Part shown: positions 29,461 to 42,839 of the stretch, piece by piece
How the letters are laid out: every line of letters begins with the position of its first letter
Numbering within the stretch: position 1 is the stretch's first letter
DNA from: an uncultured Gemmatimonadales bacterium
GTDB taxonomy: Bacteria; Gemmatimonadota; Gemmatimonadetes; Gemmatimonadales; GWC2-71-9
Length of the DNA: 64,000 nucleotides
Assembly: GCA_963817715.1 (NCBI GenBank)
Contig: CAWFPG010000005.1
Location: 641,187-705,186, forward strand
Direction: 5' to 3'
Position numbers and translations under genes: made by a program
The notes under the pieces: model-generated
What the model was told of the DNA's origin: nothing
The model's database searches: none
The model's input: only the letters and a program-made list of their open reading frames with translations

Positions 29461-31314
29461 GTGCAGATCCGCAACATCGCCATCATTGCGCACGTCGACC
29501 ATGGCAAGACGACGCTGGTGGACCAGATGCTCCGGCAGGCCGGGGCGTTCCGGGCCAACCAGCAGGTCGAGGAGCGCGTGATGGATTCCAACCCGCTCGA
29601 GAAGGAGCGGGGCATCACGATCCTGGCCAAGAACACCGCCGTTCAGTGGCACGGTACCAAGATCAACATCGTCGACACCCCCGGCCATGCCGATTTCGGT
29701 GGTGAGGTGGAGCGGATCCTCAGGATGGTCGACGGGGTGCTGATCCTGGTCGATGCCGCCGAGGGGCCGATGCCGCAGACCCGGTTCGTGACTCGCAAGG
29801 CGCTGGCGCTGGGGCTCCAGCCGATCGTGGCGATCAACAAGATCGACCGGGCCGACGCCGAGCCGATGCGGGTGCACGATGAGGTGCTGTCGCTCTTCCT
29901 CGACCTCGAGGCCACCGAGCAGCAGCTCGACTGCCCGTTTCTCTACACCTCCTCGCGGGCCGGCACCGCCACCGTCGAGCTCGACCAGCCTGGCGATTCG
30001 CTCGCACCGCTGTTCGACACGATCCTGGCCACGGTGCCGGAGCCGACCGGCGACCCCACCCACCCGTTCCAGATGCTGATCTCGACCCTCGACTTCTCGA
30101 CCTTCCTCGGCCGGATCGCCATCGGTCGGGTCGAGCAGGGCCGGATCGCGGTGGGCGACCACGTGGCGCTGTTGCCGCTCGGCGAGCCGGGAATGATGGG
30201 CGACGAACCCGGGGTACAGCAGGGCCGGGTCACCAGGCTCTACACCTTCGATGGTCTGGCCCGGGTCGAGGTCAAGGAGGCCGGAGCAGGCGACATCGTC
30301 GCGCTGGCCGGCTTCGACGGGATCGAGATCGGCAAGACCTTCACCGCGATCGACCATCTCGAACGGCTGGCCGGGATCGCGGTGGAGGAGCCGACGATCT
30401 CGGTCGACTTCATCGTCAACTCGAGCCCGTTCGCCGGGCGCGAGGGGAAGTATGTGACCTCGCGGCAGCTCCGCGACCGGCTCTTCAAGGAGCTGGAGCG
30501 GAACGTCGCCCTCCGGGTCGAGCCGACCCCGTCGCCCGACACCCACGCCGTGAGCGGGCGGGGCGAACTCCACCTCGGCATCCTGATGGAGACGATGCGC
30601 CGCGAGGGCTACGAGTTCCAGGTGAGCCGACCCCGGGTGATCCTCAAGGAGGGGCCCTCGGGCGAGCGGTTGGAGCCCTACGAGGAACTGATCGTCGACG
30701 TTCCCGAGGAGCACATGGGCGTCGTGATGGAGAAGCTGGGACCGCGCCGCACGGAAATGATCGAGATGCGAAACCCGGGGCAGGGGATGGTCCGTCTGAC
30801 CTTCAAGATCCCGTCGCGTGGGCTCTTCGGGTACCGGTCGGAGTTCCTGACCGACACCCGGGGCACCGGGATCATCCACCACCGCTTCCTGGAGTACGGG
30901 CCCTGGGCAGGGCCGCTGACCGGGCGCAAGCGGGGGGTGCTGGTCGCGGACCGGGAGGCCTCGGTGGTCGCCTATGCCCTCGGCAACCTGCAGGAGCGGG
31001 CCCAGCTGTTCGTGGCCCCGGGCGAACATGTGTACGAGGGGATGATCGTCGGCGAGAATTCGCGGCCGGGCGACATGGACGTGAACGTGGGCAAGGAGAA
31101 GAAGCTCACCAACATGCGCACCACGGCCACCGACGACAACGTCCTCCTCGAGCCGCCTCGGGAGATCACCCTCGAGTATGCCATGGAGTACATCGAGGAG
31201 GACGAGCTCATCGAGGTGACACCGGAGCACATCCGGCTCAGGAAGCGGCTGTTGCAGGCAAACGATCGCAAGCGGGCTCAGCGGGCGGCCAACCGGGTGG
31301 CCGACACCCCATGA
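29461..31314 (+). CDS. typA: Translational GTPase TypA/BipA
   Basis: From GTG 29461: [43 protein letters not shown]. About 617 aa. Confidence 0.95.
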
Positions 31315-31574
31315 CCATCACTTACCCGGGAAACCTTTCGGAGGTCACCATGTCGGCGTGGGAGGCGTCCCTCGAGGCGGCGCTGGACGAGGAGGAGTTC
31401 GTCATGAAGCGGCGGTTCGATGAGGATGGGAACGAGGATTTCGACTTTGATGACGACGCGGACGACGATGACGACGAGGACGACGACGAGTTCGACGACG
31501 ATGACGACGATGACGAGGACGAGGACGAAGACTACGACGACTTCTCATTCGGCGATGACGACGACGACAGCTGA
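31311..31574 (+). CDS. Small extremely acidic protein (87 aa; C-terminal half almost pure Asp/Glu with DFDF and DDFSFG aromatic islands)
   Basis: ATGA overlap with the typA stop. In-frame (GAC/GAT/GAG)n. Followed by hairpin 31607-31636. No family recognised. Confidence 0.6.
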   Translation: MTITYPGNLSEVTMSAWEASLEAALDEEEFVMKRRFDEDGNEDFDFDDDADDDDDEDDDEFDDDDDDDEDEDEDYDDFSFGDDDDDS

Positions 31575-32793: not shown

Positions 32794-33264
32794 TCAGATC
32801 GTGAAGTTGAGGCCCGCGGCGAGCTGGCCGGTCGAGCCGTTGTTGGCCGTGAAACGGAACTCGCCGAACGGGTGCACCCGGCCGCGGAGCGACTCCGCAC
32901 CGATGAAGGCATTCACGCCCATGTCGGTGCGTGAGTCTCCGTTGCCGCGCCGCGCCACATTGAGGCCCGTCCCCAGATAGAGCCAGTCGCCGGAGTGGGT
33001 CCCGATGCGATACTTGAGGTCGACGTTGAGGTTCGAGGCCGACCCATGATCCACCAGGAAGATGTCGAACGAGGGGTAGAACTCCAGGTGGTGTGCGATC
33101 GGGGCGCTGAACTGGGCGCCGAGCCCGACATCCTTCAGGTCGAACTGATAGGACACACGCGGGCCGAGGTGCATCTTGCTGGTCTGCGCCTGGACGGCAC
33201 CGGTGCCGACGATCGTGGCCGACAGCGCGAGCATGGTGAGCGGGTGGAACAAGCGGAACCGCAT
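32794..33264 (-). CDS. Small outer-membrane beta-barrel protein (porin-family/OmpW-like size)
   Basis: Signal peptide MRFRLFHPLTMLALSATIVGTGAVQAQ, then an alternating hydrophobic strand pattern. 156 aa. Confidence 0.55.
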   Translation of the reverse strand: MRFRLFHPLTMLALSATIVGTGAVQAQTSKMHLGPRVSYQFDLKDVGLGAQFSAPIAHHLEFYPSFDIFLVDHGSASNLNVDLKYRIGTHSGDWLYLGTGLNVARRGNGDSRTDMGVNAFIGAESLRGRVHPFGEFRFTANNGSTGQLAAGLNFTI

Positions 33265-33396: not shown

Positions 33397-34110
33397 CTAT
33401 TTCGCGCGCCGTCGATGACGGAACGCGGCCACCTCGAGACGGCTCCGCAGGGCCAGTTTCTCGAGGACGTTGTGGACGTGGCTCTTGACGGTGTGCACCG
33501 CAATCTCGAGCCGGGTCGCGATCTCCTTGTTGCTGAGCCCCTCGCCGAGCAGGTCGACCACCTCGACCTCGCGCGGAGTCAGCTGCACCGACTCGAGGAG
33601 CTGCTCGGGGTCGCCGGCCGGCAGGTTGGCCACGATCTGGGTGAAGAGCGAGTTCGCCAGTGCCTCGGGCAGCACTTCGGTGCCCGCCGCCACGGCTCGG
33701 ATGGTCGCGAAGAATTCGTCGAACGACGCGTTCTTCATGATGAAGCCGGACGCCCCTGCCCGCACGAAGTTGGCGACATCCTCCTGGCTCGCGAGCAAAC
33801 CCATGACGATCACCCGAGCCGATGGCACGTCACGATGAATCGTTGCCGTCAAGGCAAGGGTGTCGTGGTCCTCCAGCCCGAGGTCCACCAGGACGACCTC
33901 GGGACTTGCCTCACGCACCTTGGCCAGCGCCTCGGTCGCGTCGGCCGAGGCCGTCAGCACCTTGAAGCCGGGTTGGCTGCGGATCATCAGCGTGATGCCC
34001 TCGCGCAGCAGCCGGTTGTCGTCGATCACGACCAGGGAGATCGTCGCCGGGGTGGCCTTGGAGGCGCTCTTGCGAGGCCTGGCCGTGGTCCGTCGTGCGG
34101 CCTTCTTCAT
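33397..34110 (-). CDS. NarL/LuxR-type response regulator (paralog 1) with basic S/T/P-rich N-terminal tail
   Basis: MKKAARRTTARPRKSASKATPATIS tail, receiver VVIDDN..VVLVDLGL, and LuxR HTH LTPREVEVVDLLGEGLSNKEIATRLEIAVHTVKSHVHNVLEKL. Confidence 0.88.
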   Translation of the reverse strand: MKKAARRTTARPRKSASKATPATISLVVIDDNRLLREGITLMIRSQPGFKVLTASADATEALAKVREASPEVVLVDLGLEDHDTLALTATIHRDVPSARVIVMGLLASQEDVANFVRAGASGFIMKNASFDEFFATIRAVAAGTEVLPEALANSLFTQIVANLPAGDPEQLLESVQLTPREVEVVDLLGEGLSNKEIATRLEIAVHTVKSHVHNVLEKLALRSRLEVAAFRHRRRAK

Positions 34111-34285
34111 GTGTCGCGCTCCTCGCCCGTCCCCATGCGGTGCTGCCTGATCCACGCGTTGAGCGGCGTCGGCCCGCGCCACATCGACGGGGTGGGAAGG
34201 GCCGTTGGCGGCGGGCTGCCCCAGGGCAGGGAACGGCTTCTCCCGGTGGTGGACATCGGGCGTCTCACGAATTCCCGCCCGGCGA

Positions 34286-34799: not shown

Positions 34800-35156
34800 G
34801 TGTCCAAGCACATCCCGATCACCCTGGTCGCGGCACTCGCCACGATAGCCCTCAGCACTCCCCTCGTCGCGCAGGCGCGCAGCACGGTGACCCCGTCGAG
34901 TCTCGATGCGGCGGTCACGGCCCAGGCCCCCGGAAGTCGAGCCGCCCTGACGGCAGCGCTCGCGACGGACCGGAGCCTTGCGGCCGCCGGCCGGCTCGGG
35001 TTGACGGCCGACGACATCGCCACCCGGGTGGCCACCCTCGACGATGCCACGGTGCAGCAGCTGACCGATCGCCTCCTGGTCGGCGGCGCCAATGTCGTGA
35101 TCAGCACCACCGCGATCATCATCGTGCTGTTGATCCTGATCCTGCTGACCACCTGA
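34800..35156 (+). CDS. PA2779-like secreted, C-terminally anchored protein
   Basis: GTG start after GAGGAG. Signal peptide MSKHIPITLVAALATIALSTPLVAQA. LGLTADDIATRVATLDDATVQQLTDRLLVGG is followed by the TM VVISTTAIIIVLLILILLTT. Resemblance to PA2779-family proteins is from memory only. Confidence 0.6.
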   Translation: MSKHIPITLVAALATIALSTPLVAQARSTVTPSSLDAAVTAQAPGSRAALTAALATDRSLAAAGRLGLTADDIATRVATLDDATVQQLTDRLLVGGANVVISTTAIIIVLLILILLTT

Positions 35157-35195
35157 TGACGTGAGGGCGGCGAGGCTGCCAACGGCGATCACCGT

Positions 35196-37235
35196 ATGAT
35201 CGCGGTCGTTGCGTGGGTTCTGCTGGCAGTCCCGATGCCCGCCACCCGGCCAGCAGGGCCGGTGGTGCTCCAGGTCCCGTTCGTCCAGCAGTCGGAACTG
35301 CTCTGCGGCGGTGCCGCCATCGCGATGCTCGAGCGATGGTGGGGCCGCCGTGGTGTGGATGCCGAGGCGTTCGCTCCGCTGGTCCGCCCGGCCCTGGGGG
35401 GAATCACCACGGGCGACCTGGTCGCGGCCACTCGCGCGCGTGGCTGGCTCACCAGCGAGGTCCGGGGCACCATCGACCTGGTGCGACAGGCCCTGCGCGA
35501 CTCGGTCCCCGTCGTCGCACTCATCGCCGTGTCGCCGACTCGATATCACTACGTGGTGATCGTGGGCTGGAGCGATGATCGCGTGGTGTTCCACGATCCG
35601 GCGGTGGGCCCGTTCGTCAACCGATCCACGGTGGCCTTCCTCCGGCAGTGGAGCGCCACCGATCAATGGGCCCTGCTGGTGCGACCCTCGCCGGTCACCG
35701 AGTCGCCCATCGCGGCCATGTCGGTGCAGGCACCACCACCTACCGACTCGCTACCCTGCCGTCCCTGGCTCGACCAGGCCGCTGCGGCCGCCAGCGATCA
35801 TCACCTCGCCGCCGCCGACCGCGCACTCGCGCTCGCGCGGGTCAGCTGCCCCACCGAGGCGCTGGTCGACCGGGAGCTGGCCGGGATCCGATTTCGGCAG
35901 GGCCGCCAGGCCGAGGCCGGTCTCCTCGTGAGCGATTACCTGCGGCGGGCACCTGGCGATTCGCTCGCCTGGCAACTGCTGGCCAGCAGCCGCTATCTCG
36001 AGGGGCGACGTGGCGAGGCGCTCGACGCATGGAACGTGATCGGGCGGCCGTTGGTGGACCTGGTGCACATCGACGGCAGTCATCACGTCCGCTTCGGGGT
36101 CCTGACCGGCGCACTCGGTCTCCCGGTCGGTACGGTGCTCACTCGGGAACGGCTGGCGCTGGCGAACCGACGGATTGACGACGTTCCTGCACTGTCCCGC
36201 ACCAGGGTGACGTATGTGGCCGTCCCGGGTGGCCTGGTCGAGGTTCGTGCCGCAGTGGTCGAACATCCGGTGGTCGCCCCGCTTCCCATGCTGCTGCTCA
36301 CGACCGCAGTGCGCGCCTTCACGCGCCAGGACGTCGCCGTTCCGGTCGCCTCGCCCTTCGGGGCGGGCGAGCGATGGGTTGCTCAGTGGCGGTGGGAGGC
36401 CGCCGACCCTCGCCGGGCTGTGCGGTTGGACATCCCGGCCCGAGTCGTGATCCCGGGCGTGGTCAACGTCGGCGGCAGCTGGGAGGGGTTCCACGTCGGC
36501 AACGGTGACCAGGCGGTGTCCGCGTCGAGGGAGGAGCGACGGACGACGACACTCGGTTTCACCGGCTGGGCCACGGCACATGCCGAGGCGCTGGTCGGCC
36601 TCCGTCTGGAAGCGTGGACCCGGGGTGACCGCGCCCTCGCCGTGACGCTCGGCACCGCCCGACACTGGCTCGATGATCGCGCCGTGGTGGCCGTGGTTGG
36701 TGAACAGGCGCTCCCGCTTGGCCGGGGGACCGGCTATGCGCGGATCAGCGTCAGCCTGGCGTGGCGTTCCCCGGTCGCTGCCCATCGGTTGGATTGGTCG
36801 GGTCGCCTCGGTGGCGACTGGGCAAGTGTCAGGACCCCGCTCGGGCTCCGGCCGATGGCAGGCGGCGACCCCGCCCGGCGAATTCCGTTGCGCGCCCACC
36901 CCTTGATCCGGAGTGACCTGTTGGTGGCTCGGCAGGCCGGTCGTGGGGTGATCCATGGAGGCTTCGCCGTCGACCGGCACATCGCCGATGTCGATCGCCT
37001 CACCCTGGCAGTCGGGCTCTTCCTGGATGGTGCCCAGGTGATGCTCCCGGCCGACGGATCGTCGCGCTCAACCCGATTCCTCGATGCCGGGATCGGTGTC
37101 CGGGTCGGCGCGATCGGGAACACCGGCATGGCCCTGCGTCTCGACCTGGCCCGTGGGCTCCTCGAGGATCGGCGTTGGGCGCTGAGTGCGGGGCTGCAGC
37201 AGCCGTGGCCGCCACGGCTGCGCCCGCTTCCGTGA
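35196..37235 (+). CDS. Secreted C39-like cysteine peptidase fused to TPR-like repeats, a POTRA-like domain and an Omp85/TpsB-like beta-barrel
   Basis: Signal peptide. The C39 domain has the Cys in QQSELLCGGAAIAML, the His in RYHYVVIVGW, and VFHDP. Helical repeats follow (SLAWQLLASSRYLEGRRGEALDAW). The POTRA-like stretch is LPVGTVLTRERLALANRRIDDVPALSRTRVTYVAVPGGLVEVRAAV. The terminal barrel strands read AGIGVRVGAIGNTGMALRLDLARGL. Confidence 0.7.
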   Translation: MIAVVAWVLLAVPMPATRPAGPVVLQVPFVQQSELLCGGAAIAMLERWWGRRGVDAEAFAPLVRPALGGITTGDLVAATRARGWLTSEVRGTIDLVRQALRDSVPVVALIAVSPTRYHYVVIVGWSDDRVVFHDPAVGPFVNRSTVAFLRQWSATDQWALLVRPSPVTESPIAAMSVQAPPPTDSLPCRPWLDQAAAAASDHHLAAADRALALARVSCPTEALVDRELAGIRFRQGRQAEAGLLVSDYLRRAPGDSLAWQLLASSRYLEGRRGEALDAWNVIGRPLVDLVHIDGSHHVRFGVLTGALGLPVGTVLTRERLALANRRIDDVPALSRTRVTYVAVPGGLVEVRAAVVEHPVVAPLPMLLLTTAVRAFTRQDVAVPVASPFGAGERWVAQWRWEAADPRRAVRLDIPARVVIPGVVNVGGSWEGFHVGNGDQAVSASREERRTTTLGFTGWATAHAEALVGLRLEAWTRGDRALAVTLGTARHWLDDRAVVAVVGEQALPLGRGTGYARISVSLAWRSPVAAHRLDWSGRLGGDWASVRTPLGLRPMAGGDPARRIPLRAHPLIRSDLLVARQAGRGVIHGGFAVDRHIADVDRLTLAVGLFLDGAQVMLPADGSSRSTRFLDAGIGVRVGAIGNTGMALRLDLARGLLEDRRWALSAGLQQPWPPRLRPLP

Positions 37236-37262: not shown

Positions 37263-38087
37263 TCAGGGCTTCTTGGCCGCCGGCGGTGGGGGCAGTGCCA
37301 GGAGCCGGCGTCGGAAGGCGCGGAATTCCGGGGTGTCGGTGGCCAGGCCGCGCAGCTGACTCGCCGGGTGCGCAGCGATCAGCGCCTCGGTGGTGGTGAT
37401 CCGATCCTCCTCGAGCGGATGGGTGGCGAAGAACGCGTCCACGGCGCTGGGGTTGCGCTGCCGCTCGCTCAGCAGGATGCGGAACATCGCCGGGATGCCG
37501 GCCGGGCTGATGCCCGCCTTGATCGTGGTGGCCACGGCCTCGGCATCGGCCTCCTGTTCATCGCTCCGGCTGAATTTCGCGAACAGGGCGCTGCCGCCGA
37601 GGTTGATGGCCGTCTGGCCGGTGCCACTGTCGCAGATCTTGGTGAGCGTGCAGAGTGCCATCACGCCGGCGTCCGCACCCCGGGCCTGCTGCATCTGCTG
37701 GACCGTGTGTCGCAGCGTGACATGGCCGATCTCGTGCCCGAGGACGCCGGCGAGTTGGCTCATGTTCGTGGCCTGCTCGATCAGCCCGCGGTTGACATAC
37801 ACCCAACCGCCCGGCACCGCAAAGGCATTGACCTCCCGGCTGTCGACCACGGCAAAGTGCCAGGTGAGCCCTCGCGTGTCGGTGACCCGGGCCAGGCGGT
37901 TGCCGAGCGTGGTGATGTAGCGCACGGTCGCGCGATCCGAGAGCAGCGGCAGTTGTTGCGCGATCTGGGTGGAATAGTCCACACCCATCTGCTGCTCCTG
38001 CTGCTGCGAGATGGCGCACGAGGTGCCCAGCAGCACGAATCCGGCGAGCCACTGGCGCCGCCCGAGTCCCGCGTGACGGAATCGCAT
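37263..38087 (-). CDS. M48-family zinc metalloprotease lipoprotein (LoiP/BepA-like)
   Basis: WLAGFVLLGTSCA lipobox, NAFAVPGGWVYVNRGL, HEIGHVTLRH (HExxH). ATG 38099 is an alternative start. Confidence 0.85.
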   Translation of the reverse strand: MRFRHAGLGRRQWLAGFVLLGTSCAISQQQEQQMGVDYSTQIAQQLPLLSDRATVRYITTLGNRLARVTDTRGLTWHFAVVDSREVNAFAVPGGWVYVNRGLIEQATNMSQLAGVLGHEIGHVTLRHTVQQMQQARGADAGVMALCTLTKICDSGTGQTAINLGGSALFAKFSRSDEQEADAEAVATTIKAGISPAGIPAMFRILLSERQRNPSAVDAFFATHPLEEDRITTTEALIAAHPASQLRGLATDTPEFRAFRRRLLALPPPPAAKKP

Positions 38088-38330
38088 GGGTTCTGTCATC
38101 CTTTCATGCCGGTGCCGTTCGGGGGAATGTCCCCGGGCAGCATGGTGGTCATCGCCGATGGCGACACGACCGTGCCGCAAGATCGGTTCGTCCACCCTAC
38201 ACCGCCATCACCCGTTCGGCCTAGATCCGATTCCCATCCTTCGATCAATGGCCCCGCGACGGTTGGCGCATAGACTTCCCATCGGGTCAATCAGTTCGCA
38301 TCCAGGCCCGTCACCGCAAGGGAGAAGCTT

Positions 38331-39029: not shown

Positions 39030-39296
39030 ATGGACTTCGTGACTTTGATCATCGTCGGCCTCGTGGCCGGCCTGTTGGCCAGTCTGGTGATGGGCGGCAT
39101 CGGGTACGGCATCCTCGGTGATATCGTGGTCGGCATCATCGGCGCATTCCTCGGCGGCTGGCTCTTCACCGTGCTCGCGATCCGGATGCCCATCGGGGGC
39201 ATCGCCGGCACGATCCTCGTCGCCTTCGTGGGGGCCGTGGTGTTGCTGCTGGTGCTGCGGGTGCTCGGCCGAGCTCGCGGGGCATCGCGAGCATGA
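39030..39296 (+). CDS. GlsB/YeaQ/YmgE-family stress membrane protein
   Basis: MDFVTLIIVGLVAGLLASLVMGG..ILGDIVVGIIGAFLGGWLF, typical of the transglycosylase-associated family. Confidence 0.8.
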   Translation: MDFVTLIIVGLVAGLLASLVMGGIGYGILGDIVVGIIGAFLGGWLFTVLAIRMPIGGIAGTILVAFVGAVVLLLVLRVLGRARGASRA

Positions 39297-40339
39297 CGTC
39301 GCACCGGCGCCCCCTGACGACCGTGGAGGGAAGGACCCCGCGGGAGAACGGCCTCGTGATGCCGACCCGCGAGGTGTCCCCGACCGCGCCCCGGTGCAAC
39401 GACCTGGCCCGCGCCATGCTGGCATCGATTGGTGACGCGGTCATCATGTCGGATCTCGATGGAGCGGTCACCTATCTCAATCCGGCCGCGGAGCGGATCA
39501 CCGGTTGGCCATTGCGGGAGGCCCGGGGGCGGCAGCTCGCCGTCGTCATGCCGCTCATCGCCGAGGCCACCCGTCAACCGATTCCCGACCGGGTTGCGCG
39601 CTGCCTGGCCGAGCGACGCGCGATCGACCTGGAGGACGGGGTCCTCCTCCTTCGTCGCGACGGCACGGAGCTGCCGGTCGGCGACTCGACGGCCCCGGTG
39701 CTCGGCCCGGACGGGATCGTGGAGGGCGTGATCATGGTGGTCCAGGACGAAAGCGAGCAGCGCCGTGTGGGTCACCAGCTCTCGTACGAGGCCACCCACG
39801 ATGCCCTCACCGGGTTGTTCAACCGGCGCGGCTTCGAGCGACGGCTCGTCCGGGTGGTGGCAGACCTCGAGGGGAGCACCGTCCGCCACGTGCTGCTCTA
39901 TCTTGACCTCGACGGGTTCAAGCTGGTGAACGACACGTGGGGTCACCAGGCCGGCGACGACCTGTTGCGGGATCTTGGCCGTCGGCTGGATGCGCTGACG
40001 CGAAGTGGCGACTCCGTCGCGCGAATCGGGGGCGACGAGTTCGCCATCCTGCTGGAGAACTGTCCGCCGGCCGAGGGTCGACGCATCGCCGACGCGGTCC
40101 GCCTCGAAGTCTCTGGGTGCGGCGTTGCGGTCCGGGAAGGGCGTCCGACCCTCGGCGTGAGCATCGGGGTCGTGGACCTGGTGTCTGGATGTGATGACGT
40201 GGACACGATCCTGCACAAGGTCGATTCCGCCTGCTACCGGGCCAAGCGCGGCGGCGGCAATCGCATTCGCCGTCCGGATCGACGCCCGTCGGGCGGAACG
40301 GAAGGCGCCGGGGTTGGAGCTACCGCATCAGCTGGCTGA
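39293..40339 (+). CDS. PAS-GGDEF diguanylate cyclase
   Basis: PAS DAVIMSDLDGAVTYLNPAAERITGW. GGDEF HDALTGLFNRRGFE..LDLDGFKLVNDTWGHQAGD..RIGGDEFAILL. ATGA overlap with the upstream gene. Confidence 0.88.
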   Translation: MTSHRRPLTTVEGRTPRENGLVMPTREVSPTAPRCNDLARAMLASIGDAVIMSDLDGAVTYLNPAAERITGWPLREARGRQLAVVMPLIAEATRQPIPDRVARCLAERRAIDLEDGVLLLRRDGTELPVGDSTAPVLGPDGIVEGVIMVVQDESEQRRVGHQLSYEATHDALTGLFNRRGFERRLVRVVADLEGSTVRHVLLYLDLDGFKLVNDTWGHQAGDDLLRDLGRRLDALTRSGDSVARIGGDEFAILLENCPPAEGRRIADAVRLEVSGCGVAVREGRPTLGVSIGVVDLVSGCDDVDTILHKVDSACYRAKRGGGNRIRRPDRRPSGGTEGAGVGATASAG

Positions 40340-40898: not shown

Positions 40899-41654
40899 TC
40901 AGGCACCGGGGATCGCATCGATGACAAGGTCGGAGCGTCGCAGGGACGACAGGTAGCGCGCCGGTCCCTCGCCCGGGGGCGGCTGCGGCCTGGCGGGCGA
41001 ACGCGGGCCGCCACGGCGGGACAGCATGGCCACCTCCAGCCGACTGTCCGCCGACAGTTTCGCGAGGATGCGGTGCACGTGGCTCTTGACGGTGTGTGCC
41101 GAGATGCGCAGCCGGGTGGCGATCGTCTTGTTGGCCAGTCCCTGCACCACGAGGTCGCAGACATCCTGCTCACGCCTGGTGAGTCGGGGCCGACGGACCC
41201 GGCGTGCCGGTTCCGGTGGTGTACGCCAGCTGATGAGTTGGGCGAAGAGCGCGGCGGTCAACTCCGGGGGCAGCACCCGCTCCCCTCGTGCCACCGCACG
41301 GACGGTGTCGAGGAAGGTCGGGAGGGTGGCCTGCCCCATCACGAATCCCGACACGCCGGCCCGGATGAAGCTCGAGACATCGGTCACCCCGGCGACGAGG
41401 CCCATCAGCATCGTCCGGGAGCCCGGGACGTCGCCGTGAAGTGCGCCGGTGAGCGTGAGCGCGTCGCCCTCAGTGCCACGGAGGTTCACCAGCACCACGT
41501 TCGGCTGCCGCGCCCGGATCAGTCGCAGGGCATCATCGGCGCCGGCGGCTGCCGCCAGCACGACGAACCCCGGTTGGCCACGAATCAGGCTCAACACACC
41601 TTCGCGAGCCAGGGCGTCGTCGTCGATGAGCACCATCGAGATCCGCTCGGTCAT
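40899..41654 (-). CDS. NarL/LuxR-type regulator (paralog 2) with the phospho-acceptor Asp replaced by Asn
   Basis: MTERISMVLIDDDALAREG..NVVLVNLRG, where paralogs have VVLVDLGL and VVLIDLGL. The Asn codon is at 41484-41486. HTH LTRREQDVCDLVVQGLANKTIATRLRISAHTVKSHVHRILAKL. Confidence 0.85.
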   Translation of the reverse strand: MTERISMVLIDDDALAREGVLSLIRGQPGFVVLAAAAGADDALRLIRARQPNVVLVNLRGTEGDALTLTGALHGDVPGSRTMLMGLVAGVTDVSSFIRAGVSGFVMGQATLPTFLDTVRAVARGERVLPPELTAALFAQLISWRTPPEPARRVRRPRLTRREQDVCDLVVQGLANKTIATRLRISAHTVKSHVHRILAKLSADSRLEVAMLSRRGGPRSPARPQPPPGEGPARYLSSLRRSDLVIDAIPGA

Positions 41655-41870
41655 CGGGAGGCTGGGGTCCGTGCCGTGTGGCAGCCGGGCATGCGTGGTG
41701 ATGTCCATGCCGGGCGTGAGCACAGGACGACCGATCGGCAGCCGCGTGAGAGGCTGTCTCGGTCGGGCAGGGCACCTTGCGGTGACTGAGGTTGATTGTG
41801 CACGCCGCAATCTGCGGAGTGCGGGGGGCAGGGACAATCGGTCATTGGGACTAGCACGCACCGCCTCGAA

Positions 41871-41893
41871 CAGGCAACCGGACCGGTTGCCTG
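41871..41893. terminator. Perfect 23-bp palindrome CAGGCAACCGG-A-CCGGTTGCCTG abutting the stop of regulator paralog 3
   Basis: 11-bp arms read directly. Immediately downstream (minus strand) of stop 41894-41896. Could be a terminator or a protein-binding site. Confidence 0.45.
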
Positions 41894-42631
41894 TCACGGC
41901 TCGCGTGGCGGTGCCTCCAGGGTGCCGTGACTGAAGGCGGCGACCTCGAGGCGGCTCCGGAGGGCCAGTTTCTCGAGGATGTTGTGCACGTGGCTCTTGA
42001 CGGTGTGGATCGCGATGTGGAGCCGGGAGGCGATGGCCTTGTTGCTCAAACCCTCACCGATGAGGTGGACCACCTCGCGCTCCCGGCTGGTGAGGCGCAC
42101 CGAGTCCCCGGATTGGGCGGGGTGCTGGCCGATGGCGTTCCGGGCGATCTGGGAGAACAAGGAATTGGTCAGTTCGGCCGGCAGGATCTCCCCGCCCGCG
42201 GCGACCGCCCGGACGGTCGCAAAGAACTCGGTGAAGGTGGCGTTCTTCATCACGAAGCCCGAGGCGCCCGCCTTCACGTAGTCGGCGATGTCATCCTGCA
42301 GCGGGACCATGCCCATCATGATGACCCGAGCCGAGGGAACCTCGGTGCGGATGGTCGTGGACAGGCTGAGGCTGTCGTGATCAGGCAAGCCAAGGTCGAT
42401 CAGGACCACATCGGGCCTGGCGTCGCGCACCTTGCGTAGGGCCTCGTCCGCATCCGCAGATGCGGCCAGGACGGTGAACCCGGGCTCCGCCCGTACCCGG
42501 TTCGTGATGCCCTCGCGCAACAGACGGTTGTCCTCGATCAGGACAAGGGCGATCGTCTCGGGCGGCGGGGACGCATCGGGCCTGGATGAGGGCGCCGGGG
42601 ATCGTGCCGTCGTCTTCTTCCGTGTTCCCAC
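41894..42631 (-). CDS. NarL/LuxR-type response regulator (paralog 3) with basic S/T/P-rich N-terminal tail
   Basis: From GTG 42631: VGTRKKTTARSPAPSSRPDASPPPETIALVLIEDN..VVLIDLGL..LTSREREVVHLIGEGLSNKAIASRLHIAIHTVKSHVHNILEKL. Roughly two-thirds identical to paralog 1 by eye. Confidence 0.85.
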   Translation of the reverse strand: MGTRKKTTARSPAPSSRPDASPPPETIALVLIEDNRLLREGITNRVRAEPGFTVLAASADADEALRKVRDARPDVVLIDLGLPDHDSLSLSTTIRTEVPSARVIMMGMVPLQDDIADYVKAGASGFVMKNATFTEFFATVRAVAAGGEILPAELTNSLFSQIARNAIGQHPAQSGDSVRLTSREREVVHLIGEGLSNKAIASRLHIAIHTVKSHVHNILEKLALRSRLEVAAFSHGTLEAPPREP

Positions 42632-42839
42632 ATCGGCCTCGATTCGTGGATCCCGCCGGCTCCGTATCCCGACAAACCGTTGATTGGCGCGGCGCGGGTC
42701 TCGGATACACATCGGCACAGGTCGGGGGCGGCATCGTCATGCCCCCCCGGCCCGCAAGTCCATGCTGCCCCGTGTGTCCATGGAGGATATTGGGCCGTAC
42801 GGGTGTCAGCAACCGTGGGGCACCGACGTACCTTACCGG

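What the first reader, a model, noticed from the sequence alone, without database searches (positions are those of the whole stretch)
34800..37235. Candidate new outer-membrane system: secreted C39 cysteine peptidase fused to TPR + POTRA + Omp85-type barrel, with a PA2779-like tail-anchored partner
Seen: the 679-aa product has four parts. First, a cleavable-looking signal peptide. Second, a papain-like C39 core with the Cys in LLCGGAAIAML, the His in RYHYVVIVGW, and HDP. Third, about 130 aa of TPR-like helices. Fourth, a POTRA-like unit (VGTVLTRERLALANRRIDDVPALSRTRVTYVAVPGGLVEVRAAV) and about 300 aa of amphipathic strands ending AGIGVRVGAIGNTGMALRLDLARGL, like the last strands of Omp85/TpsB barrels. 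Forty nt upstream, a 118-aa protein with a signal peptide, an A/T-rich linker, LTADDIATRVATLDDATVQQLTDRLLVGG and a terminal TM resembles (from memory) PA2779-family proteins. Those are encoded next to 'PA2778 family cysteine peptidases', a name-only gene pair of unknown function. Established: C39 domains are best known as cytoplasmic leader-cleaving domains of bacteriocin ABC exporters, and POTRA-barrels are OM insertases or two-partner-secretion translocators. Inference: a periplasm-facing protease physically built into an OM translocator. It could couple processing with export or surface display of the small partner or another substrate, or act as a proteolytic envelope-stress sensor. I do not know of a described C39-Omp85 fusion.
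Basis: partly seen in the sequence, partly recalled or inferred. Interest (0 to 1): 0.8.

Follow-up and report, generated by a model that had tools for sequence, protein, structure and literature searches.

The report
Cysteine protease fused to Omp85 barrel
A conserved two-gene unit of Gemmatimonadota encodes an outer-membrane barrel of the BamA/Omp85 kind joined to a double-glycine-type cysteine protease, next to a small tail-anchored protein that carries a matching Gly-Gly motif; I found no description of this combination, and its function is untested.

Summary
Window 35196-37235 (+) encodes a 679-aa protein with five parts: a signal peptide, a C39 cysteine peptidase, three TPR repeats, one POTRA domain and an Omp85-type beta-barrel. 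The AlphaFold2 model is confident (pLDDT 91, pTM 0.86). Foldseek matches the C-terminal half to BamA, TamA and CdiB (E about 1e-13). It matches the N-terminal domain to the double-glycine peptidases ComA, PCAT1 and LahT150.

This is not an assembly artefact. A profile of the POTRA and barrel finds 851 protein clusters, and 131 of the best 149 also carry the C39-TPR part.

The 118-aa gene 39 nt upstream (34800-35156) is a PA2779-family protein. It has a signal peptide, a helical region, a nearly invariant L-A-G-G and a very conserved hydrophobic tail that ends the protein. This gene lies directly upstream of the fusion in 37 of 37 testable species genomes and in three distant homologues. No other neighbour is conserved.

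My best reading is an outer-membrane-anchored, periplasm-facing protease that cuts its partner after Gly-Gly. Export through the barrel is possible but not shown. The closest analogues are PlpD, FapD/FapF and BepA-BamA. I class it as a new variant of a known kind.

The parts
34800..35156 (+). Partner gene: 118-aa PA2779/DUF6627-family protein (GTG start, GAGGAG 7 nt upstream)
   Evidence: All 58 aligned homologues hit PA2779_fam (best E 9.5e-13).
34800..34877 (+). Partner signal peptide, aa 1-26, ending ...PLVAQA|RS
   Evidence: Read from the sequence. A24 and Q25 are conserved or invariant in alignment A2.
35073..35087 (+). Partner L-L-V-G-G motif, aa 92-96 (family consensus LAGG): the proposed cleavage site, after G96
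   Evidence: In 59 homologues, -1 G 100%, -2 G 100%, -3 A 92%, -4 L 92%. Also present in distant partners in L048, L052 and L053 and in the Vicinamibacterales family.
35094..35153 (+). Partner C-terminal hydrophobic tail VVISTTAIIIVLLILILLTT, aa 99-118: the most conserved part of the protein, and it ends the protein
   Evidence: I101, S102, T104, I107, I108, L110 and L111 are invariant.
35196..37235 (+). Fusion gene: 679-aa protein made of signal peptide, C39, TPR, POTRA and Omp85 barrel
35196..35261 (+). N-terminal hydrophobic signal-like segment, aa 1-22
   Evidence: It aligns with the signal peptides of homologues such as P0010. The public gene call starts at V23, which would remove it.
35268..35690 (+). 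C39 cysteine peptidase domain, aa 25-165. Catalytic residues: Q32 (35289-35291), C37 (35304-35306), H118 (35547-35549), D134 (35595-35597)
   Evidence: Pfam. The four residues are invariant. Foldseek: ComA peptidase domain 3k8u TM 0.80, LahT150 6mpz TM 0.77.
35691..35759 (+). Low-confidence Pro-rich linker, aa 166-188, ending in conserved C188
   Evidence: pLDDT is below 50 at aa 169-178. C188 and C218 are a conserved pair.
35760..36038 (+). Three TPR repeats (six helices), aa 189-281
   Evidence: DSSP. Foldseek to CTPR3: TM 0.86-0.89, rmsd about 1 A. 40 of 59 homologues hit the TPR part of the BepA model.
36051..36263 (+). Single POTRA domain (beta-alpha-alpha-beta-beta), aa 286-356
   Evidence: DSSP. 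Pfam POTRA scores 28.1 bits in relative P0281 and POTRA_1 23.6 bits in fused relative P0190.
36282..36326 (+). Helix between POTRA and first barrel strand, aa 363-377; position relative to the barrel unknown
   Evidence: DSSP. The tools do not give coordinates.
36330..37196 (+). Omp85-type beta-barrel, aa 379-667 (15 long DSSP strands plus a short one)
   Evidence: Foldseek to BamA, TamA and CdiB, probability 1.0, 425-510 aligned columns. Pfam Omp85 is above its cut-off in relatives P0217 and P0259.
36825..36935 (+). Long L6-like loop, aa 544-580, with invariant R566 in (L/P)LRAHP
   Evidence: Conservation in 106 distant homologues.
37020..37034 (+). F609-x-D611-x-A613 on a late strand, resembling the Omp85 (F/G)xDxG motif
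   Evidence: F in 104 of 107, D in 106 of 107, A in 100 of 107 sequences.

Best explanation
This is a two-gene envelope module. The large protein sits in the outer membrane through a divergent Omp85-family barrel. A single POTRA domain, three TPR repeats and an active double-glycine-type C39 cysteine protease hang from it into the periplasm. The small co-encoded protein is exported by Sec and loses its signal peptide. It is then held by its C-terminal hydrophobic tail. The protease cuts it after the conserved L-A-G-G, three residues before the tail. That separates a helical domain of about 70 aa from a very conserved hydrophobic peptide of 22-25 aa.

Shown: the domain architecture, the conserved catalytic residues, the conserved GG motif and the strict gene pairing. 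Inferred: the periplasmic topology, that the partner is the substrate, and the cleavage site. Open: whether the barrel only anchors and positions the protease, as in PlpD, or also receives one of the two products.
For: - Architecture: the model has pLDDT 91.3 and pTM 0.86. Foldseek matches BamA, TamA and CdiB at E about 1e-13. The N-terminal domain is closest to the double-glycine peptidases ComA, PCAT1 and LahT150.
- Active enzyme: Q32, C37, H118 and D134 are invariant in 117 close homologues and in 106 homologues of 30-49% identity.
- Omp85 features are kept: invariant R566 in the long loop, FxDxA and DxGxG.
- Partner motif: GG 100%, A at -3 in 92%, L at -4 in 92%, at a fixed 22-24 residues from the C-terminus. 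It is kept in distant partners.
- Pairing: the fusion lies directly downstream of the partner in 37 of 37 species genomes with downstream DNA. The partner lies directly upstream in L001, L003, L048, L052 and L053. Other neighbours of the window occur in at most 7 of 42 loci.
- The same pairing defines the PA2778 and PA2779 families of NCBIfam.
- Extracytoplasmic location: homologues have signal peptides, and there is a conserved non-catalytic Cys pair, C188 and C218.
- Precedents: the PlpD enzyme domain is periplasmic (PMC11116518), and FapD is an active periplasmic C39 protease (PMC5557850).
Against: - No cleavage has been observed and no model of the complex could be made.
- Upstream of GG, only position -4 fits the classical double-glycine leader. 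Position -7 is acidic in 86% of partners, where classical leaders are hydrophobic. No double-glycine leader model hits the partner.
- Geometry is awkward. A protease held at the outer membrane would have to reach a site three residues from a tail that Sec should leave in the inner membrane.
- A Vicinamibacterales branch of the partner family keeps LAGG and the tail but has no C39 gene within 5-8 kb in 3 of 3 loci. The motif may therefore serve another purpose.
- GG could simply be a hinge at the membrane surface.
Confidence: 0.45

Rival explanations
1. Processing is coupled to export. After cleavage, the POTRA domain captures the released partner fragment and the Omp85 barrel moves it across or into the outer membrane. 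This would resemble TpsB/TpsA, or FapD with FapF, in a single polypeptide.
For: - The Omp85 functional motifs (the L6-like Arg and FxDxA) stay invariant, as expected for a working barrel rather than a decaying anchor.
- Stand-alone signal peptide-POTRA-barrel relatives exist, so the barrel lineage functions without the protease.
- CdiB is among the structural matches.
- FapD protease activity is required for secretion through an outer-membrane barrel (PMC5557850).
Against: - The partner has no TPS domain and no beta-rich or beta-signal segment.
- There is one POTRA domain and no N-terminal plug helix, unlike TpsB.
- The curated PA2778 family model is 255 positions long, so those proteins lack a barrel and cleavage would not depend on one.
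- The best structural matches are BamA and TamA, whose barrels are closed to the outside (PMC4104836).
Confidence: 0.15
2. It is an envelope quality-control or assembly factor: a BepA-like protease-TPR unit permanently joined to a BamA-like barrel. It acts on stalled or misassembled envelope proteins. The small protein would then be a regulator, an inhibitor or an inner-membrane tether, not the substrate.
For: - 40 of 59 homologues hit the BepA model through the TPR region (best E 8.7e-7).
- BamA and TamA are the best structural matches.
- PlpD shows that Omp85 barrels can carry periplasmic enzymes acting on envelope components (PMC11116518).
- The orphan partner family in Vicinamibacterales shows the small protein can exist without an adjacent protease gene.
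Against: - TPR models cross-hit each other easily.
- The nearest structural relatives of the protease are narrow-specificity double-glycine peptidases, not general proteases.
- The strict one-to-one pairing with a protein that carries an invariant GG is left unexplained.
Confidence: 0.2
3. It is a type Vd-style autotransporter or toxin. The C39-TPR part would be a passenger pushed to the cell surface or released, and the small protein would be an immunity factor.
For: - The order passenger-POTRA-barrel matches the original type Vd scheme (PMC4104836).
- Papain-like toxin/immunity pairs and a CdiA-CT toxin appear among the weaker structural matches.
- PA2778 was listed as a possible T6SS toxin in a TraDIS screen and not followed up (bioRxiv 10.1101/733030).
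Against: - The type Vd model was overturned for PlpD itself, whose enzyme domain is periplasmic (PMC11116518).
- The family is not polymorphic as toxin systems are: sequences are conserved across the family, with 47-60% identity among the close homologues and invariant core residues.
- The small gene is upstream, not downstream.
- The candidate immunity gene in the TraDIS screen lay downstream of PA2778, so it was not PA2779.
Confidence: 0.07

Closest known systems
PlpD/FplA (patatin-like Omp85 proteins, formerly type Vd secretion)
   Same: The order of parts is the same: signal peptide, enzyme domain, one POTRA, Omp85 barrel. The PlpD enzyme domain stays in the periplasm, packed against POTRA (PMC11116518). 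The high pTM of the model here (0.86) is consistent with similar packing.
   Different: The enzyme is a C39 cysteine protease with three TPR repeats, not a patatin lipase. There is a dedicated small partner gene. The barrel is too divergent for Pfam to detect in the window protein. Dimerisation is untested.
PA2778 family cysteine peptidase with PA2779 family protein (NCBIfam NF033920 and NF033919)
   Same: The N-terminal 25-278 aa align with positions 3-246 of the 255-position PA2778 model (E 4e-17). The partner aligns with positions 3-113 of the 123-position PA2779 model. The two genes are adjacent.
   Different: Scores are below the curated cut-offs (62 against 150 bits; 34 against 40 bits). 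The PA2778 model ends where POTRA begins here, so that family lacks the POTRA and barrel. I found no functional study of either family.
FapD and FapF of the Pseudomonas functional amyloid system
   Same: A Sec-exported, periplasmic, catalytically active C39 protease works with an outer-membrane beta-barrel (PMC5557850).
   Different: FapD and FapF are separate proteins. FapF is a trimeric 12-strand barrel, not an Omp85 barrel. The substrates are amyloid subunits. No amyloid genes lie near this gene pair.
C39 peptidase domains of PCAT/AMS ABC exporters (ComA, PCAT1, LahT)
   Same: These are the best structural matches (TM 0.77-0.82, rmsd 2.5-3.0 A). The Gln/Cys/His/Asp set is the same. They cut after Gly-Gly, and the partner has an invariant GG with Leu at -4.
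   Different: Those domains are cytoplasmic and fused to an ABC transporter, and they remove an N-terminal leader. Here the domain is extracytoplasmic and fused to an outer-membrane barrel, and it would remove a C-terminal anchor.
BamA, TamA and BamA-like single-POTRA Omp85 proteins; BepA docked on BAM
   Same: The barrel and POTRA fold are shared. The long loop has an invariant Arg and there is an FxDxG-like motif. A protease plus TPR next to an Omp85 barrel recalls BepA on BamA.
   Different: There is one POTRA rather than five or three. A sequence profile detects no similarity to solved Omp85 proteins. The protease is covalently attached and belongs to a different catalytic class from BepA (M48).
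TpsB/TpsA two-partner secretion (FhaC, CdiB)
   Same: An Omp85-superfamily barrel is encoded next to a dedicated partner. CdiB appears among the structural matches.
   Different: TpsB has two POTRA domains and an N-terminal plug helix. TpsA is large and carries a TPS domain. The partner here is 118 aa, helical and tail-anchored.

Membership tests
Omp85 superfamily | Membrane beta-barrel with the 16-strand Omp85 fold | tested here: met
   Foldseek of a model with pLDDT 91 matches BamA, TamA and CdiB at E 1e-13 to 1e-10, probability 1.0, over 425-510 columns. DSSP gives 15 long strands and one short one.
Omp85 superfamily | At least one POTRA domain directly N-terminal to the barrel | tested here: met
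   A beta-alpha-alpha-beta-beta unit at aa 286-356. Pfam POTRA scores 28.1 bits (cut-off 21.3) in family member P0281, and POTRA_1 scores 23.6 bits (cut-off 23) in fused member P0190.
Omp85 superfamily | Sequence match to the Pfam Omp85 (PF01103) or ShlB model | tested here: inconclusive
   There is no hit in the window protein and none with the family profile against PDB sequences. Relatives linked by the same profile do reach the cut-off: P0217 at 27.4 bits and fused P0259 at 24.1 bits, against a cut-off of 24.
Omp85 superfamily | Conserved loop-6 (V/I)RG(Y/F) and strand-13 (F/G)xDxG motifs (motif definitions are from my own knowledge) | tested here: inconclusive
   The long loop at aa 544-580 has invariant R566 in (L/P)LRAHP. 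F609-x-D611-x-A613 lies on the second strand after it. These are similar in kind to the canonical motifs but not identical.
Peptidase family C39 | Pfam C39 models above the gathering score | tested here: met
   PF13529 scores 34.3 bits (cut-off 24) and PF03412 scores 31.5 bits (cut-off 22).
Peptidase family C39 | Catalytic Cys, His and Asp plus the oxyanion Gln | tested here: met
   Q32, C37, H118 and D134 are invariant in alignments A1 and in 106 representatives. The fold matches ComA, PCAT1 and LahT150.
Peptidase family C39 | Cleavage after a double-glycine motif | not testable with these tools
   Only the candidate site, LAGG in the partner, is seen.
PA2778 family cysteine peptidase (NF033920) | Score at or above the curated cut-off of 150 bits | tested here: not met
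   62.4 bits for the full protein and 66.6 bits for the isolated domain. All 59 homologues hit the model, best E 1e-21. This is homologous but outside the curated equivalog.
PA2778 family cysteine peptidase (NF033920) | Encoded next to a PA2779-family gene | tested here: met
PA2779 family protein (NF033919) / DUF6627 | Score at or above the curated cut-off (40 bits for NCBIfam, 27 bits for Pfam) | tested here: not met
   34 bits and 25.5 bits for the window protein. All 58 homologues hit the NCBIfam model, best E 9.5e-13.
TpsB transporter (two-partner secretion, type Vb) | Two POTRA domains, an N-terminal plug helix, and a TpsA partner with a TPS domain | tested here: not met
   There is one POTRA and the N-terminus is a protease. 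The partner is 118 aa with no TPS or haemagglutination-domain hit.
Patatin-like Omp85 (PlpD, type Vd) | N-terminal patatin-like lipase domain | tested here: not met
   The N-terminal domain is C39 plus TPR. Only the arrangement of domains is shared.
Peptidase-containing ABC transporter (PCAT) | C39 domain fused to ABC transmembrane and ATPase domains | tested here: not met
   The NHLM_micro_ABC1 and bacteriocin_ABC models match only their peptidase part (aa 28-153). There is no ABC domain in the protein or next to it.

The most novel reading that the evidence does not exclude
By analogy with classical C39 systems, the functional product would be the piece C-terminal to Gly-Gly. Here that is the very conserved 22-25-aa hydrophobic peptide (x2-3-VISTTAIIIxLLILILL). 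The fused Omp85 barrel would take up this alpha-helical peptide and insert it into, or pass it across, the outer membrane. That would make the pair a self-contained cleave-and-deliver machine, and the first bacterial Omp85 that handles a helical membrane peptide.
Probability: 0.1. Interest if true: 0.9.

Novelty: new variant of a known kind. Interest (0 to 1): 0.62.

Why it matters
- It adds a subfamily to the Omp85 superfamily. The 2014 census lists ten subfamilies, none with a cysteine protease (PMC4104836).
- Hundreds of proteins now labelled only 'C39 family peptidase' or 'hypothetical' are in fact outer-membrane barrel proteins. Domain databases miss this half.
- It gives the uncharacterised PA2778/PA2779 gene pair its first concrete, testable hypothesis: cleavage after an invariant Gly-Gly that releases a tail-anchored protein.
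- Together with PlpD, it supports the idea that the Omp85 scaffold has been reused several times to hold periplasmic enzymes at the outer membrane.
- It offers a natural covalent version of arrangements otherwise seen as separate proteins: BepA on BamA, and FapD with FapF.

Tried and rejected
- Co-folding partner and fusion. In an artificial linker construct, MAFFT spread the partner homologues over the wrong region, so I did not submit it. The tool also returns no coordinates or contacts.
- Sequence link to solved Omp85 proteins. A profile of POTRA plus barrel against PDB sequences found nothing. The link came from the predicted structure and from Pfam hits in relatives.
- Barrel-less PA2778-type genes on plasmids. 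tblastn found only ABC-exporter peptidase domains.
- Taxonomy of the distant fused clades. Cluster look-ups gave no organism names.
- Promoter and terminator scan: none found.
- Rfam: nothing found.
- Repeats: chance level.
- A 14-nt complement between the partner's tail codons and the fusion start codon is not a stable structure (z = -0.30).
- T6SS toxin lead for PA2778. The candidate immunity gene there lay downstream of PA2778, not at PA2779, and it was not followed up.
- Assembly fusion: rejected.
- The convergent M48 peptidase gene as part of the system: rejected, since it is found in 1 of 42 loci.
Full report
**What is there**

The window is about 69% G+C. On the + strand it carries a 118-aa ORF at 34800-35156, with a GTG start and GAGGAG 7 nt upstream. 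A 679-aa ORF follows 39 nt later at 35196-37235. Long ORFs on the opposite strand are the usual by-product of high G+C and have no support. No Rfam family, promoter-like site, terminator-like site or meaningful repeat lies in the region.

**The large protein, N-terminal half**

- Pfam places Peptidase_C39_2 (34.3 bits, cut-off 24), Peptidase_C39 (31.5 bits, cut-off 22) and Peptidase_C70 on aa 25-153. There are only weak TPR hits at aa 204-282.
- NCBIfam aligns aa 25-278 with positions 3-246 of the 255-position 'PA2778 family cysteine peptidase' model. The E-value is 4e-17, but the 62 bits are below the 150-bit cut-off.
- Q32, C37, H118 and D134 are invariant in 117 homologues of 45-59% identity. 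They are also invariant in 106 full-length cluster representatives of 30-49% identity.
- A separate AlphaFold2 model of aa 23-282 (pLDDT 92) is closest to the double-glycine peptidase domains of ComA (3k8u, TM 0.80; 5xe9, TM 0.82), PCAT1 and LahT150 (6mpz, TM 0.77). Its helical part matches three-repeat TPR proteins at about 1 A rmsd.
- Two further cysteines, C188 and C218, are conserved. A possible disulfide between them would fit an extracytoplasmic location.

**The large protein, C-terminal half**

- Pfam finds nothing on aa 290-679.
- The full-length AlphaFold2 model is confident (pLDDT 91.3, pTM 0.86). It shows a beta-alpha-alpha-beta-beta unit at aa 286-356, a helix at aa 363-377, then long antiparallel strands from aa 379 to 667, interrupted by a long loop at aa 544-580.
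- Foldseek against the PDB returns BamA from several phyla, TamA and CdiB. E-values run from 9e-14 to 1e-10, with probability 1.0 and 425-510 aligned columns at 9-17% identity.
- A sequence profile of this half finds no solved Omp85 protein. Family members linked by that profile do reach the Pfam cut-offs: Omp85 in P0217 (27.4 bits) and in fused P0259 (24.1 bits), POTRA in P0281 (28.1 bits), and POTRA_1 in P0190.
- Conservation in the barrel is concentrated where Omp85 proteins are conserved: invariant R566 in the long loop, then F609-x-D611-x-A613, D630-x-G632-x-G634 and R648-x-D650 on the last strands.

**Not an artefact, and how widespread**

- The first protein search found at least 688 homologues. 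The best 120 are mostly 650-708 aa (three shorter, 596-648 aa), and 118 of them cover at least 94% of the query.
- The POTRA-barrel profile, run against 1.84 billion cluster representatives, found 851 clusters at E up to 1e-3 and 373 at E up to 1e-30.
- Of the best 149, 131 also carry the C39-TPR part. Most of the rest are fragments.
- Three (P0217, P0275, P0281) are genuine stand-alone proteins with a signal peptide, POTRA and barrel. For P0217 and P0281, whose contigs I examined, no C39 gene or partner gene lies nearby.
- Named members are from Gemmatimonadota.

**The small protein**

It has a signal peptide ending PLVAQA|RS, about 70 residues of predicted helix, the motif L-L-V-G-G at aa 92-96, and then ANVVISTTAIIIVLLILILLTT, which ends the protein.

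- In 58 aligned homologues the tail is the best conserved part, with seven invariant positions, preceded by LAGG.
- Counted from GG: -1 G 100%, -2 G 100%, -3 A 92%, -4 L 92%, -7 Asp or Glu 86%. GG lies 22-24 residues from the C-terminus.
- All 58 hit PA2779_fam, with a best E of 9.5e-13. The window protein scores 34 bits against a cut-off of 40.
- No solved structure is related.

**The pairing**

- I scanned one genome per species with the tail motif. This gave 40 loci: 38 Gemmatimonadota, one MAG labelled delta proteobacterium, and one Vicinamibacterales.
- Set aside the Vicinamibacterales locus (L043, discussed below). In all 37 of the remaining 39 loci that have DNA downstream, the C39-TPR gene follows directly on the same strand. 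In 33 of them the sequence reaches into the barrel. Two long-read assemblies (L012, L017) have apparent frameshifts.
- Starting instead from fusion proteins, the small gene lies directly upstream in L001 and L003. The same holds for the distant homologues L048, L052 and L053, whose partners all keep ALAGG and the tail.
- None of the window's other neighbours is conserved. The response regulators, the AI-2E transporter, the M48 peptidase and the OmpA-like lipoprotein each occur in at most 7 of 42 loci.
- The unit is therefore two genes.

**An exception that matters**

A large Vicinamibacterales branch of the partner family (277 hits) keeps L(A/V)GG and the tail. It has no C39 gene within 5-8 kb in three of three loci examined. 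Either the protease is encoded elsewhere in those genomes, or the motif has a role that does not depend on this protease.

**Mechanism**

The best-supported reading is an outer-membrane-anchored, periplasm-facing double-glycine protease whose dedicated substrate is the co-encoded tail-anchored protein, cut after LAGG.

The architecture, the catalytic residues, the motif and the pairing are shown. The topology is inferred from three things: signal peptides in homologues, the confident packing of the domains (pTM 0.86 for the whole protein against 0.58 for the isolated N-terminal half), and PlpD, whose enzyme domain was shown experimentally to be periplasmic (PMC11116518). The substrate relation and the cleavage site are inference.

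Three points weaken this reading:
- The region upstream of GG is only a partial fit to classical leaders.
- It is not obvious how an enzyme held at the outer membrane reaches a site next to an inner-membrane anchor.
- The partner family has an orphan branch.

Whether the barrel merely anchors the enzyme or also receives a product cannot be decided here. Retention of the Omp85 motifs and the existence of stand-alone relatives favour a working barrel. The lack of any TPS domain or beta-signal in the partner argues against a TpsB-like or BamA-like client relation.

**Comparison with what is known**

- The ten Omp85 subfamilies listed in 2014 include WD40, metallophosphoesterase and patatin fusions, but no cysteine protease (PMC4104836).
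- FapD shows that C39 proteases can act in the periplasm together with an outer-membrane barrel (PMC5557850).
- 40 of 59 homologues hit the BepA model through their TPR part, which recalls BepA docked on BamA.
- Full-text searches found no paper describing a C39-Omp85 fusion, DUF6627, or a function for PA2778 or PA2779.

**Verdict**

This is a new variant within known kinds: the Omp85 superfamily, C39 peptidases and the PA2778/PA2779 pair. It has a clear, testable mechanistic hypothesis. Interest 0.62.

Noticed in passing
L043 5001-5369; L050 8001-8387; L051 8001-8387: A large Vicinamibacterales (Acidobacteriota) family of PA2779-like small proteins (277 hits) keeps L(A/V)GG and the ISTT.III.LL.LIL tail. 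It has no C39 gene within 5-8 kb in three of three loci.
   Followed up: partly
P0217 (L047 247-1605), P0281 (L044 1440-2768), P0275: These are stand-alone relatives of the barrel half, with a signal peptide, one POTRA and the barrel. For P0217 and P0281, whose contigs were examined, no protease or partner gene lies nearby. They are the members that reach the Pfam Omp85 and POTRA cut-offs, and they may represent the ancestral form.
   Followed up: partly
window 36858-36866 (aa 555-557 of the fusion): The conserved long barrel loop carries its own A-G-G (consensus LWPxAGGxL). This resembles the partner's LAGG. It may be coincidence.
   Followed up: no
window 35760-36038: The TPR region of 40 of 59 homologues hits the NCBIfam model of BepA, the BAM-associated M48 protease (best E 8.7e-7).
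   Followed up: partly
window 37263-38195 (-): An M48 metallopeptidase gene converges on the fusion gene, ending 27 nt after its stop codon. It is not a conserved neighbour (1 of 42 loci).
   Followed up: yes
window 35196-35261: The public gene call for this protein (P0001, 657 aa) starts at V23 and drops the hydrophobic N-terminus. That segment aligns with the signal peptides of homologues, so ATG 35196 is the likelier start. About 10 of the 117 aligned sequences have a lipobox-like Cys in the signal peptide.
   Followed up: partly
L012 5364-7467; L017 5288-7465: In two long-read MAG assemblies the fusion gene is split into two overlapping ORFs. These look like frameshift errors rather than real split genes.
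   Followed up: no
window 31311-31574 (+): An 87-aa ORF overlaps the stop codon of the TypA/BipA-like GTPase ORF by 4 nt. It encodes an extremely acidic Asp/Glu-rich tail.
   Followed up: no
window 32794-33264 (-): A 156-aa protein with a signal peptide and strand-like repeats has no Pfam hit. It looks like a small outer-membrane barrel. It recurs near the pair in 6 of 42 loci, and its ORF overlaps the longest reading of the AI-2E transporter ORF.
   Followed up: no
window 33397-34182 (-), 40899-41897 (-), 41894-42718 (-): Three paralogous LuxR-type response-regulator genes lie within 9 kb around the pair, together with a PAS-GGDEF gene at 39293-40339.
   Followed up: no
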